DNA from: Candidatus Latescibacterota bacterium
GTDB lineage: Bacteria; Latescibacterota; UBA2968; UBA8231
Direction of reading: 5' to 3'
DNA: 64,000 bases
Assembly: GCA_965261395.1 (NCBI GenBank)
Contig: OZ253462.1
Location: 1,856,001 to 1,920,000 of the forward strand
Position numbers and translations under genes: made by a program. Each line of letters opens with the position of its first letter. The first letter of the stretch is position 1. Under the pieces are notes generated by a model. The model ran no database searches. It saw only the letters and a list, made by a program, of their open reading frames with translations, and was not told where the DNA came from. Below, piece after piece: positions 59,371 through 61,096 of the stretch.

Positions 59371-60525
59371 CTAAACGTGCGGCAGGCGGCCTTCGAGGCC
59401 GCTGTAGGGCTGCGGAATGGCGTAGGCCGAGACCAGTTCTCCGTGTGCGACGGCCTCCTGCCGGCCCGCCTCTATGGCGACCTGCACGGCACCGACATCG
59501 CCGCGGACGACCGCGGCCGTCAAGTAGTACCCCACCTTATAGGCCCCCTCGTATTCGACGGAAGCGGCTTTGAGCATCCGATCGACGGCCCGCACCAAGG
59601 CCACGGTGCTGCGCGTCTCAATCAGCCCCATAGCCTGCCGCGCACCCGGCCCAAGGCCCTCGGCCGCAGTGGCAAAGCGGGCGACTAGCGCGGAATCGGG
59701 CCGCGAGACTACAGCCGAGGCGTCGAGCTGGCCCAAGGCCGTAGCGGCCTCAGCACCGGCGCGCACGGCGGCCTGCACGTCGTCGAGTTGGCCGGTGGCC
59801 AGCGCGGCAATCCGCCCACCGCTGCCGATGCTCAAGCGCTCGATTTGGACATCCGCGGCCTTGAGCATGGCGTCGGCGCTGCCCACGACCGCGGCGTAAC
59901 CAATGGTCTCTATGAGGCCCAAGGCACCAGTGGCGCGCGGTGTGACCGGTGGCGCGGGCGGCAGCAGAGGGCCTAGTCCTTCGCTGGGCTGGGGCAAAAC
60001 AAGGGTCGCGTACACGGTGCCAAGCCGCTCGGCTGCTTGCCGGCCAGCTTCTAGCGCTGTCTGCACGGCCGCCACATCGCCAAAGACCGGTGCGTGACAC
60101 AGGGCACCACCGATGAAGGCCCAACCCCCTAGCTCCACTTGGGCGGCCTTGAGCATGGCGTCGGTGCCAGCCACTAGCGGCGTCAGGCCCTGCGTCTCCA
60201 ACAGGCCAAGCGCTCGCGGCTGTACCGGTTCGGCACCGAGGCCGGTTGCGTGGGGCATGGCGTCCATGGCGCGCGCATCCGGCCTCGGCACCACTCGCGC
60301 GCCAATCAATTCGCCGGTGCGGTTCGCCTCGACCTCGCCGACGCGAATGGCCGCCTCCACGTCAGCCACTTGGCCGGCAATTACTACGGTGAGCCAACCC
60401 GAGCCAATGCCGTGCCGACCACAGAGGCGTACCTCAGCGGCCTTGAGCATGGCGTCGGTGGAAGCCATTAGCGACGCCATGCCGCGCGTCTCCAGCATGC
60501 CGATCGCTCCGCTAGACACCGCCAC
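59371..60525 (-). CDS. BMC shell protein with four tandem BMC domains
   Basis: Four A(I/L/M)G(M/L)(L/I)ET...DxMLKAA...(P/S)(R/Q)P units at aa 7-82, 105-180, 201-276, 298-373; start may be GTG 60519. Confidence 0.88.
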   Translation of the reverse strand: MAVSSGAIGMLETRGMASLMASTDAMLKAAEVRLCGRHGIGSGWLTVVIAGQVADVEAAIRVGEVEANRTGELIGARVVPRPDARAMDAMPHATGLGAEPVQPRALGLLETQGLTPLVAGTDAMLKAAQVELGGWAFIGGALCHAPVFGDVAAVQTALEAGRQAAERLGTVYATLVLPQPSEGLGPLLPPAPPVTPRATGALGLIETIGYAAVVGSADAMLKAADVQIERLSIGSGGRIAALATGQLDDVQAAVRAGAEAATALGQLDASAVVSRPDSALVARFATAAEGLGPGARQAMGLIETRSTVALVRAVDRMLKAASVEYEGAYKVGYYLTAAVVRGDVGAVQVAIEAGRQEAVAHGELVSAYAIPQPYSGLEGRLPHV

Positions 60526-61096
60526 CTCCCATCGGCACGGCGTATGCGGCCAAAACCTCGGGTCGCGGCTGCGGAATCAGTGCCGTGCCCAGCAAGTGCT
60601 CGCAGCCCGCGAGCAGCTTTTGCGCGACGGCTATGGCTTCGGTTACGGCCCCTACGTCCCCCAAGACCAGCGAACACACCACGCGGTCGTGGACCGTCAG
60701 CACGTTGATTACTTCGACGGCAGCCGTCTTGACCATCTGATCGTTGGTGTGAATGTGAGCTCCGTAGCCGCGCGTCTCAACCAACCCCAAGGCACCGGCG
60801 GGAAAATCGCTGCGGGTGCTGATTGGAAAATTGACGAAATGGAAGCAGGCAGCGGCGGGCTGGTTTAGAGGGACGGCCACCACGTGTTCTACCACGCCGC
60901 GGGCCGCTTCTTCGCCGCTTTGCAGCGCGGCGGCCACATCGCTGATCGACCCGGTAAAAAAGGCCGTGGTATAACCGCCAATTGACGACCAGCCTGCGAG
61001 CTGCACGTCCGCAGCCTTGCAGGCCGCATCTGCACCCACAATGGCGGCGGCCACGCCCTGCACCTCGATCATGCCGACTGCTGGGGACCCGGCCAT
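60512..61096 (-). CDS. Divergent two-domain BMC shell protein (BMC-T-like)
   Basis: AVGMIEV..DAACKAA and ALGLVET..DQMVKTA..GDVGAV..IPQP. Confidence 0.88.
   Translation of the reverse strand: MAGSPAVGMIEVQGVAAAIVGADAACKAADVQLAGWSSIGGYTTAFFTGSISDVAAALQSGEEAARGVVEHVVAVPLNQPAAACFHFVNFPISTRSDFPAGALGLVETRGYGAHIHTNDQMVKTAAVEVINVLTVHDRVVCSLVLGDVGAVTEAIAVAQKLLAGCEHLLGTALIPQPRPEVLAAYAVPMGGGGV

What the first reader, a model, noticed from the sequence alone, without database searches (positions are those of the whole stretch)
59371..61096. Four-domain BMC shell protein coupled to a two-domain partner: a 4+2 (or single-chain six-domain) asymmetric pseudohexamer
Seen: the 384-aa ORF has four complete BMC domains, each with the DxxxK edge motif (DAMLK x3, DRMLK) and 20-22-aa linkers. 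It overlaps the upstream 194-aa two-domain gene by up to 14 bp. All six pore loops differ (SIGGY, VHDRV, GIGSG, FIGGA, IGSGG, KVGYY). Removing one G from ATGGGAGG (about 60528-60530) fuses them with a 19-aa linker (RPEVLAAYAVPMEVAVSSG), although the same bases also form a good SD for a separate start. Knowledge: shell tiles need six domains (BMC-H 1x6, BMC-T 2x3), and four does not divide six. Inference: an obligate 4+2 heterodimer or six-domain monomer forming a fully asymmetric, substrate-tailored pore. I know of no described shell tile like this. An alternative is three 4-domain chains forming a 12-domain double tile.
Basis: partly seen in the sequence, partly recalled or inferred. Interest (0 to 1): 0.9.

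Follow-up and report, generated by a model that had tools for sequence, protein, structure and literature searches.

The report
Four-plus-two-domain microcompartment shell tile
Two neighbouring genes encode a two-domain and a four-domain microcompartment shell protein that probably join one-to-one into a six-domain hexagonal tile with no internal symmetry, a building block not found in the literature searched.

Summary
ORF 59371-60525(-) has four PF00936 (BMC) domains (E 1.9e-78) and ORF 60512-61096(-) has two (E 2e-32). The pair is not an artefact. Four-domain orthologues occur in 82 of 168 genomes of the phylum. In all 70 other loci with a complete four-domain ORF (61 distinct sequences), a BMC ORF lies directly upstream, and it is never fused. 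Public contigs from four studies show no indel at the junction. Each of the six domain positions is its own conserved paralogue with its own pore loop, and all six keep the edge lysine. A complex model closes the ring as A1-A2-B1-B2-B3-B4 (ipSAE 0.80, best of 3 controls 0.00). Because BMC hexamers are solved structures, that pass may partly reflect likeness to them. Best reading (about 0.68): an obligate 1:1 heterodimer forming a symmetry-free pseudohexamer. The single-chain six-domain alternative is rejected. Homotrimers or tile-bridging assemblies are not excluded. No shell protein with more than two domains turned up in the papers searched or among solved structures. I rate it a new variant of a known kind, with interest 0.72.

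The parts
60512..61096 (-). Gene A: two-domain BMC shell protein, 194 aa
   Evidence: PF00936 with 2 stretches, E 2e-32. The family has 324 hits running from 94% down to 55% identity.
60851..61081 (-). Domain A1 (aa 6-82). Pore loop S-I-G-G-Y is one residue shorter than in the locus's BMC-H. Edge Lys K27.
   Evidence: Alignment A2 has invariant K27, G35, W36, G40, G41, T43 and T44. A1 forms its own clade, SH-aLRT 100.
60551..60790 (-). Domain A2 (aa 103-182). Pore loop T-V-H-D-R-V. Edge Lys K123.
   Evidence: Invariant Y111, K123, V132, V135, R138, V140 and C141. It is the most divergent domain class, with a stem of 1.74 and support 100.
60512..60530 (-). A/B junction: GGGAGG inside the last codons of A, GTG starts at 60525 and 60519, stop of A at 60512-60514 (8- or 14-nt overlap)
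   Evidence: Sequence read. No indel here in contigs of 4 runs. Across loci the junction is an overlap of 8 or 14 nt in the genome loci, and an overlap or a gap of up to 12 nt in the metagenome loci, where my first-start-codon calls overstate the longer overlaps.
59371..60519 (-). Gene B: four-domain BMC shell protein, 382 aa from GTG 60519 (384 aa from GTG 60525)
   Evidence: PF00936 with 4 stretches, E 1.9e-78. AF2 model has mean pLDDT 90.7 and pTM 0.89. Orthologues in 82 of 168 genomes of the phylum.
60274..60510 (-). Domain B1 (aa 4-82 of the 382-aa form). Pore loop H-G-I-G-S-G-W. Edge Lys K26.
   Evidence: Invariant K26, G34, H36, G37, G39, W42 and T44. In the model it contacts A2.
59980..60216 (-). 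Domain B2 (aa 102-180). Pore loop F-I-G-G-A-L. Edge Lys K124.
   Evidence: Invariant K124, G132, W133, G137, L140 and H142. Clade support 99.
59692..59928 (-). Domain B3 (aa 198-276). Pore loop I-G-S-G-G-R. Edge Lys K220.
   Evidence: Invariant G207, Y208, K220, G234, G235 and R236. Clade support 100.
59401..59637 (-). Domain B4 (aa 295-373). Pore loop K-V-G-Y-Y. Edge Lys K317.
   Evidence: Invariant E301, T302, R303, K328, G330, Y331, L333 and T334; K317 is kept in at least 90%. In the model it contacts A1.
58187..59356 (-). Context: DHDPS-family enzyme (389 aa) with an N-terminal extension of about 70 aa, directly after B
   Evidence: PF00701, E 1.3e-57, matching residues 75-361. It is below every NCBIfam equivalog cut-off. 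It starts less than 200 nt after B in 54 of 55 loci with room.
61100..61549 (-). Context: 149-aa ORF of no known family, directly before A
   Evidence: No Pfam or NCBIfam family. Its N-terminal 48 aa are 35% identical to the N-terminus of the DHDPS-like enzyme, E 3e-7. It lies upstream of A in 46 of 59 loci with room.
61554..61817 (-). Context: BMC-H, 87 aa
   Evidence: PF00936 with 1 stretch, E 4.8e-27.
61834..62394 (-). Context: ordinary tandem BMC-T, 186 aa
   Evidence: PF00936 with 2 stretches, E 1.5e-52. Its two domains form their own clades, apart from A and B.
62432..63112 (-). Context: PduL-type phosphotransacylase
   Evidence: NF011652, 221.7 bits, above its cut-off of 209.
63116..63430 (-). 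Context: BMC-P vertex protein, 104 aa
   Evidence: Matches CcmL, EutN and CsoS4 models, all below their cut-offs.
63430..64000 (-). Context: C-terminal part of a BMC-type acylating aldehyde dehydrogenase. The whole gene is 470 aa and runs past the window end.
   Evidence: NF011927, 655 bits, above its cut-off of 403, for L162:431-1843(-).
57110..58186 (-). Context: FAD-dependent oxidoreductase (DAO family, ThiO-like)
   Evidence: PF01266, E 4.2e-56. TIGR02352 scores 174 bits, below its cut-off of 250.8.
56135..57088 (-). Context: second, divergent DHDPS-family protein, 317 aa
   Evidence: PF00701, E 3.4e-11.

Best explanation
Genes A (two BMC domains) and B (four BMC domains) are translated from coupled cistrons. 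I propose they assemble 1:1 into one pseudohexameric shell tile with ring order A1-A2-B1-B2-B3-B4. B forms four-sixths of the hexagon. A fills the gap, and its C-terminal tail lies on B the way an inter-domain linker would. All six outer edges keep the lysine used for tile-to-tile contacts, so the tile can sit in a facet beside the locus's BMC-H and BMC-T. Because no domain is repeated, the centre is lined by six different loops. Two of them place invariant bulky or charged side chains where BMC-H has G-S-G: H-(N/D)-R in A2 and G-Y-(F/Y) in B4. This should give a narrow, off-centre conduit or a single-copy binding site that a symmetric hexamer or trimer cannot have. The tile is genetically tied to the DHDPS-family enzyme that follows it. 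Shown: the domain content, the conservation, the constant split and adjacency, and the modelled ring. Inferred: that the two chains bind in the cell, the stoichiometry, the state of the pore and the link to the enzyme.
For: (1) A has 2 and B has 4 PF00936 stretches, so together they make six. (2) In all 70 loci other than the window's own with a complete four-domain ORF (61 distinct sequences, 41 clusters at 90% identity, 25 at 70%), a BMC ORF lies directly upstream. In one search this held for 61 of 61 ORFs with an intact 5' end, the own genome included; 55 of the upstream ORFs were complete two-domain ORFs and 6 were cut by a contig end. One search adds 10 of 10. The two cistrons overlap by 8 or 14 nt in the genome loci. 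In the metagenome loci they overlap or are separated by up to 12 nt. (3) In family f4 the A-B-DHDPS triad stands apart from the other shell genes, which makes A, rather than BMC-H or BMC-T, the likely partner. (4) Each of the six domain positions is a separate clade across the family: SH-aLRT is 100 for A1, 100 for A2, 70 for B1, 99 for B2, 100 for B3 and 91 for B4. All are distinct from the domains of BMC-T and BMC-H. (5) The edge lysine is invariant in five domains and kept in at least 90% of sequences in B4. Each domain has its own invariant pore-loop residues. (6) Complex model (ESMFold2, my own alignments): median ipSAE 0.80 (runs 0.82, 0.77, 0.80), best of 3 controls 0.00. That mark was reached by 58 of 80 solved complexes and 2 of 110 mismatched pairs. 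The runs agree in at least 90% of contacts and the partner's pLDDT is at least 88. B1 (residues 6-92) touches A2 (110-143), B4 (303-360) touches A1 (7-44, 73-87), and the tail of A (188-194) touches B. The ring is therefore closed in the same N-to-C sense. (7) AF2 of B alone gives pLDDT 90.7 and pTM 0.89. Two neighbouring domains superpose on the synthetic tandem BMC-H of 6NER with TM 0.88-0.90 normalised to the target. (8) Contigs of 4 runs from 4 studies show no indel across 59200-61700, and all four bridge the junction.
Against: There is no experimental evidence of binding. BMC hexamers and trimers are abundant among solved structures, so the complex model may pass by likeness to them. The controls were unrelated proteins, not other BMC proteins, so the model does not show that A fits better than the 186-aa BMC-T, two BMC-H chains or a second copy of B. 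A has the layout of an ordinary BMC-T and could form homotrimers. No natural fused six-domain form was found that would serve as a Rosetta-stone link. Why the chain is always broken after domain 2 is unexplained. Pore assignments rest on alignment to the locus's BMC-H loop and on my recalled knowledge of the PduA pore motif, not on a structure.
Confidence: 0.68

Rival explanations
1. A is an ordinary BMC-T that forms homotrimers. B assembles separately: three B chains give twelve domains, either as two linked tiles or as staples whose domain pairs sit in neighbouring tiles and cross-link the facet.
For: A has the length and two-domain layout of BMC-T. All of B's linkers are of similar length (17-19 aa between domain envelopes), so no linker marks a special 4|2 geometry. 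One short metagenome contig (L113, 2062 nt) has an in-frame stop in the B2-B3 linker, which would give 2+2.
Against: This does not explain why A and B are adjacent and coupled in 70 of 70 other loci. It also does not explain why they stay together with the DHDPS-like gene in satellite loci that lack the other shell genes. In the model both ends of B's arc contact A. AF2 places B's four domains in one fixed arrangement, pTM 0.89.
Confidence: 0.2
2. B completes its ring with a partner other than A, either two BMC-H chains or the 186-aa BMC-T, and A acts on its own.
For: BMC-H and BMC-T are encoded about 0.5-1.3 kb upstream in most loci. The complex model was not controlled with these proteins.
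Against: In family f4 loci A-B-DHDPS lies without BMC-H or BMC-T nearby. Only A is coupled to B.
Confidence: 0.07
3. The real product is one six-domain chain. On this reading the split is a sequencing frameshift in the GGG run, or is bridged by programmed frameshifting or readthrough.
For: Loss of one G would join the frames with a linker-like 19-aa stretch (read).
Against: No fused ORF in 70 other loci. Ten loci with long open B frames (451-791 aa) still have A in another frame. The overlap or gap differs between loci, so the frame offset between A and B is not conserved. I found no conserved slippery site, though I did not search for one formally. There is no indel in contigs of 4 runs, two of them from RNA libraries. 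No relative of about 580 aa appeared in three searches. P0121 (411 aa) reads as a frameshift-ridden gene call.
Confidence: 0.02
4. The four-domain ORF is an assembly or gene-calling fusion of two BMC-T genes.
For: None found.
Against: The window lies in a single-contig genome of 6.55 Mb. The ORF is intact, without internal stops, in 82 of 168 genomes of the phylum at 48-96% identity. The B2-B3 linker carries conserved residues: P187 is invariant and L185 is kept in at least 90%.
Confidence: 0.01

Closest known systems
BMC-T(s), the standard tandem-domain trimeric shell protein (e.g. PduT, 3N79/3PAC; H. ochraceum BMC-T, 5DIH)
   Same: Non-permuted PF00936 domains are joined by short linkers and make a pseudohexamer of six domains. 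A by itself has exactly this layout.
   Different: BMC-T is a homotrimer with threefold symmetry and two kinds of domain. Here six kinds of domain are spread over two chains (2+4) with no symmetry. B, with four domains, cannot tile a hexagon by itself.
Synthetic BMC-H tandem fusion of Haliangium ochraceum (PDB 6NER)
   Same: It is the best sequence match (E 1.3e-34) and the best fold match (TM 0.88-0.90 normalised to the target). Neighbouring hexamer positions are covalently linked.
   Different: It is engineered, has two near-identical domains and still forms a symmetric trimer.
CcmK3-CcmK4 heterohexamers of beta-carboxysomes (Sommer et al. 2019; I saw only the entry in the reference list of PMC8217296, and the content is recalled)
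   Same: A hexagonal tile built from more than one kind of BMC domain.
   Different: These are single-domain chains that mix in variable ratio and order. Here order and stoichiometry would be fixed by covalent linkage.
Three-domain PF00936 proteins in the representative library (P0253, P0258, P0261, P0265, P0271, P0266)
   Same: More than two BMC domains in one chain (3 stretches each). This also breaks the one-or-two-domain rule.
   Different: Three divides six, so a homodimer would do. They show no specific kinship to any of the A or B domain classes, and I found no description of them in the papers searched.

Membership tests
BMC shell proteins (PF00936) | PF00936 domain above Pfam's gathering score | tested here: met
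   B scores 258.9 bits and A 111.4 bits against a cut-off of 24.5.
BMC shell proteins (PF00936) | Conserved edge lysine (D-x-x-x-K) for tile-to-tile contacts. The role of the motif is recalled, and Sutter 2021 names KAAN as an interface motif. | tested here: met
   K26, K124 and K220 of B and K27 and K123 of A are invariant. K317 of B is kept in at least 90%.
BMC shell proteins (PF00936) | Encoded in a locus with a BMC-P vertex protein and cargo enzymes | tested here: met
   BMC-P, BMC-H, BMC-T, PduL and an acylating aldehyde dehydrogenase lie on the same strand.
BMC shell proteins (PF00936) | Assembles into a six-domain hexagonal tile | tested here: inconclusive
   There is only a model: a closed ring with ipSAE 0.80 against 0.00 for the best of 3 controls. 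No experiment.
BMC-T(s) (tandem, trimeric) | Exactly two PF00936 domains per chain | tested here: not met
   A meets this with 2 stretches, but B has 4.
BMC-T(s) (tandem, trimeric) | Non-permuted domain topology | tested here: met
   The best stretches match profile positions 1-75 of 75 (B) and 1-71 (A) in order.
BMC-T(s) (tandem, trimeric) | Homotrimer with threefold symmetry | not testable with these tools
   The single complex job went to A+B. A3 and B3 were not modelled.
   None in 70 other loci. None among the hits listed.

The most novel reading that the evidence does not exclude
The A-B heterodimer is a natural shell tile without symmetry whose unique face and single-copy pore residues form a one-to-one docking site. 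The proposed ligand is the roughly 50-aa N-terminal domain shared by the DHDPS-family enzyme that always follows B and by the 149-aa Cys-rich protein that usually precedes A. That would make an enzyme-coupled pore: cargo anchored at its own dedicated conduit, with exact 1:1 matching that is only possible because the tile has no repeated subunit.
Probability: 0.22. Interest if true: 0.88.

Novelty: new variant of a known kind. Interest (0 to 1): 0.72.

Why it matters
Current catalogues describe six shell protein types and five hexagonal building blocks, all homo-oligomers of one- or two-domain chains (PMC8217296 passages; PMC9052549). A fixed 2+4 heterodimer would be a further building block and the first natural tile in which every pore-lining position is unique. 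That bears on how shells achieve selective permeability. It would also give shell engineers a natural scaffold with six individually addressable positions. So far this has been approached by synthetic tandem fusions such as 6NER. The family is common in one phylum (82 of 168 genomes), is present in sponge-associated metagenome-assembled genomes, and sits in a metabolosome whose substrate is unknown.

Tried and rejected
Fused six-domain forms. I searched for them in three ways. The 'near' search with B covered 211-672 aa and its best 120 hits were 285-404 aa. The 'longer' search with A gave 5 hits, and the only strong one, P0121 (411 aa), reads as a frameshifted gene call. The exhaustive search of 1.84 billion representatives gave best-150 lengths up to 569 aa, and the 569-aa protein has only 2 BMC stretches. 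Ten genomes whose B match lay in an open frame of 451-791 aa were fetched. In all ten A lies in another frame.

Ancestry of the six domains. The tree leaves the relations among the classes unresolved. hhalign gives a weak, non-reciprocal hint of a three-domain period: A1 scores best with B2, A2 with B3 or B4, and B4 with B1. I do not rely on it. The three-domain proteins show no specific kinship to any class.

Other dead ends and failed calls:
- The 149-aa ORF has no Pfam or NCBIfam family. One zinc-ribbon hit (17.4 bits) is below its cut-off of 27. Atlas scores of 0.79-0.84 are leads only.
- Paired covariation between A and B was considered and not run. About 60 mostly related pairs and largely invariant interface residues would give noise.
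- My first tally of the 149-aa ORF (23 of 51) was wrong, because cross-hits of BMC domains shifted the reference point. (46 of 59) replaces it.
- asked for a result too early.

Literature. Phrase searches found no shell protein with more than two BMC domains. The phrases were 'four BMC domains', 'four/three pfam00936', 'four PF00936', 'three BMC domains', 'multiple BMC domains', 'tandem BMC', 'four domains' and 'asymmetric pore'. Passages read in PMC8217296, PMC4207490, PMC8007038, PMC9052549 and bioRxiv 10.1101/2025.11.08.687404 also found none. Supplementary Data 2 of PMC8217296 may show this locus type, and I could not see it.
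Full report
WHAT IS THERE

On the minus strand of the window lies a metabolosome-type microcompartment operon. In order it encodes:
- an acylating aldehyde dehydrogenase (470 aa, running past the window end; NF011927, 655 bits, above its cut-off);
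- BMC-P (63116-63430);
- a PduL-type phosphotransacylase (62432-63112, above its cut-off);
- a tandem BMC-T of 186 aa (61834-62394);
- a BMC-H of 87 aa (61554-61817);
- a 149-aa ORF of no known family (61100-61549);
- gene A (60512-61096, 194 aa);
- gene B (59371-60525, 384 aa);
- a DHDPS-family enzyme with an N-terminal extension of about 70 aa (58187-59356);
- a ThiO-like FAD oxidoreductase (57110-58186);
- a second, divergent DHDPS-family protein (56135-57088).

Pfam finds four PF00936 stretches in B (E 1.9e-78) and two in A (E 2e-32). The whole genome, one contig of 6.55 Mb, has 11 PF00936 matches, nine of them in this locus. The probable start of B is the GTG at 60519. Most close homologues listed are 382 aa, and GGGAGG lies 5 nt upstream, inside the last codons of A. 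That gives an 8-nt overlap.

IT IS REAL AND CONSERVED

B has 531 relatives among the 8000 candidates scored. The best 120 are 285-404 aa long and run from 98% down to 55% identity. A has a parallel family of 324 hits, the best 120 being 146-209 aa and running from 94% down to 55%. Named records call the organisms Candidatus Latescibacterota or Gemmatimonadota metagenome-assembled genomes.

In the genomes held for the phylum, a B orthologue (E at most 1e-60, one per genome, no internal stops) occurs in 82 of 168. By family this is f1 64 of 75, f4 15 of 22, f2 2 of 31, and none of 39 in eleven other families. By genus it is 17 of 49. Within the window's genus it is 23 of 24 other genomes in the first draw. 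The one without it is 58% complete.

THE SPLIT IS CONSTANT

I scanned all ORFs of the fetched loci with a BMC-domain HMM built from this locus's nine domains.
- Every four-domain ORF with an intact 5' end had a BMC ORF directly upstream on the same strand: 61 of 61, the own genome included. Of the upstream ORFs, 55 were complete two-domain ORFs and 6 were cut by a contig end. One further four-domain ORF was itself cut at its 5' end.
- Ten more genomes were chosen because their B match lay in a long open frame (451-791 aa). All ten have A in a different frame.
- Leaving out the own genome, that is 70 loci, 61 distinct B sequences, 41 clusters at 90% identity and 25 at 70%. Some loci are the same genome fetched by two routes, and relatives are not independent.
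- The junction is an overlap of 8 or 14 nt in the genome loci. In the metagenome loci it is an overlap or a gap of up to 12 nt. My first-start-codon calls there make the longer overlaps overstated. The length differs between loci, so the frame offset between A and B is not conserved.
- No ORF with three or six domains occurred in these loci.
- One short metagenome contig (L113) has an in-frame stop in the B2-B3 linker.
- Public contigs of four runs from four studies, two of them from RNA libraries, cover 59200-61700 without any inserted or missing letter, and all four bridge the A/B junction. RNA-library contigs do not by themselves prove transcription.

SIX DIFFERENT DOMAINS

In alignments of 37 B and 39 A sequences (each set thinned to below 80% pairwise identity, plus the window's own sequence as the first row), every domain has its own invariant residues around the pore loop:
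- A1: G35, W36, G40, G41, T43, T44.
- A2: V132, V135, R138, V140, C141.
- B1: G34, H36, G37, G39, W42, T44.
- B2: G132, W133, G137, L140, H142.
- B3: G234, G235, R236.
- B4: K328, G330, Y331, L333, T334.

The edge lysine is invariant in five domains and kept in at least 90% of sequences in B4. The linkers and both C-terminal tails also carry conserved residues (P89 and H90, P187, F282, H381).

In a tree of 124 domain sequences, each position forms its own group. SH-aLRT is 100 for A1, 100 for A2, 70 for B1, 99 for B2, 100 for B3 and 91 for B4. All are separate from the two domains of BMC-T and from BMC-H. The order of branching among the groups is unresolved. For that tree I used every third row of each alignment and 12 loci for BMC-T and BMC-H, not all rows.

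Aligned to the locus's BMC-H loop (V-G-S-G-L), A2 has V-H-D-R-V and B4 has V-G-Y-Y-L. So an invariant Arg and an invariant Tyr would stand at the narrowest part of the pore. That these positions line the pore is my inference from the recalled PduA structure.

STRUCTURE MODELS

AF2 of B alone gives mean pLDDT 90.7 and pTM 0.89. The best fold matches are chains of the synthetic tandem BMC-H shell 6NER (TM 0.88-0.90 normalised to the target, rmsd 1.9-3.2 Å over about 180 columns). No solved chain that matches B by sequence is longer than 213 residues.

The complex of B with A (ESMFold2, my own alignments) scored a median ipSAE of 0.80 (0.82, 0.77, 0.80), against 0.00 for the best of 3 controls. 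That mark was reached by 58 of 80 solved complexes and 2 of 110 mismatched pairs. The runs agree in at least 90% of contacts and the partner's pLDDT is at least 88. Confident contacts join B1 (6-92) to A2 (110-143) and B4 (303-360) to A1 (7-44, 73-87). B2's loop (135-137) and A's tail (188-194) are also in the interface. The model is therefore a closed ring A1-A2-B1-B2-B3-B4, running in the same sense as the chains.

There is a caveat. Hexamers and trimers of this fold are well represented among solved structures, so the pass may reflect that likeness. The controls were unrelated proteins, not other BMC proteins.

READING

The best explanation, at about 0.68, is an obligate 1:1 heterodimer that makes one symmetry-free pseudohexameric tile. 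The remaining probability goes mainly to two rivals. In one, A forms a normal trimer and B forms twelve-domain or tile-bridging assemblies (0.20). In the other, B is completed by another shell protein (0.07). A single six-domain chain (0.02) and an assembly artefact (0.01) are contradicted by the data above. Why the chain is always cut after the second domain, and never fused, is unexplained.

CONTEXT THAT MAY BEAR ON FUNCTION

The DHDPS-family gene starts less than 200 nt after B in 54 of 55 loci with at least 1200 nt downstream. In family f4 the triad A-B-DHDPS stands apart from the other shell genes. The enzyme's first 48 residues are 35% identical (E 3e-7) to the N-terminus of the 149-aa ORF before A. 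That ORF is present there in 46 of 59 loci with room. A shared small N-terminal domain flanking an asymmetric tile suggests a docking relationship.

COMPARISON AND NOVELTY

The closest known kinds are BMC-T(s) trimers, the engineered tandem BMC-H (6NER) and CcmK3-CcmK4 heterohexamers. The catalogue of Sutter et al. 2021 (passages read) names six shell protein types and five hexagonal building blocks, none with more than two domains. BMC Caller (2022), MCPdb (2021) and Axen et al. 2014 say the same in the passages I read. Phrase searches found nothing.

The exhaustive representative search also turned up three-domain PF00936 proteins. So chains with more than two BMC domains are not unique to this family.

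I rate the finding a new variant of a known kind, with interest 0.72.

Noticed in passing
P0253, P0258, P0261, P0265, P0271, P0266 (representative library): These proteins are 286-330 aa long and each has three PF00936 stretches with linkers of about 20-30 aa. Such chains could make 3x2 pseudohexamers. I found no description in the papers searched, and they show no specific kinship to the A or B domain classes.
   Followed up: partly
window 61100-61549 (-): A 149-aa ORF of no known family sits between BMC-H and gene A. Its N-terminal 48 aa are 35% identical (E 3e-7) to the N-terminal extension of the DHDPS-like enzyme, and its C-terminal half is rich in Cys. It is present upstream of A in 46 of 59 loci with room.
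   Followed up: partly
window 56135-59356 (-) and 62432-64000 (-): The cargo set is two DHDPS-family proteins (nearest NanA and DapA models, all below cut-off), a ThiO-like FAD oxidoreductase, an acylating aldehyde dehydrogenase and PduL. The metabolosome's substrate is unknown. The terms 'pfam00701' and 'dihydrodipicolinate' do not occur in the main text of the 2021 catalogue.
   Followed up: partly
L024 (G040:C5:733000-748000), also L035, L036, L163, L164, L169, L172: In family f4, A, B and the DHDPS-like gene form a small separate locus. Other BMC-domain genes of G040 lie on another contig.
   Followed up: partly
L113:277-1452: A 2062-nt metagenome contig has the four-domain gene interrupted by one in-frame stop in the B2-B3 linker, giving 2+2. 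This could be a sequencing error, a pseudogene or a real further split.
   Followed up: no
P0121 (411 aa): This database protein joins 1.5 domains of A to the start of B through out-of-frame stretches. It looks like an error-laden gene call rather than a natural fusion.
   Followed up: partly
A and B domain classes (alignments): There is a weak hint of three-domain periodicity. A1 scores best with B2, A2 with B3 or B4, and B4 with B1. By eye, the tail of A resembles the B3-B4 linker, and the B1-B2 linker resembles the tail of B. The scores are not reciprocal and the tree does not resolve it.
   Followed up: partly
L162:1918-2784 (+), just beyond the window end (G000:C1:1920917-1921783): A fumarylacetoacetate-hydrolase-family gene is divergently oriented upstream of the operon. 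It is nearest to the 2,4-didehydro-3-deoxy-L-rhamnonate hydrolase model (225 bits) but below that model's cut-off of 500.
   Followed up: no
window 59200-61700: Contigs from two metatranscriptomic libraries (X15, 4400 nt; X17, 3747 nt) cover A, the A/B junction and the upstream genes at 95-99% identity. This is compatible with expression, but DNA carry-over is not excluded.
   Followed up: partly
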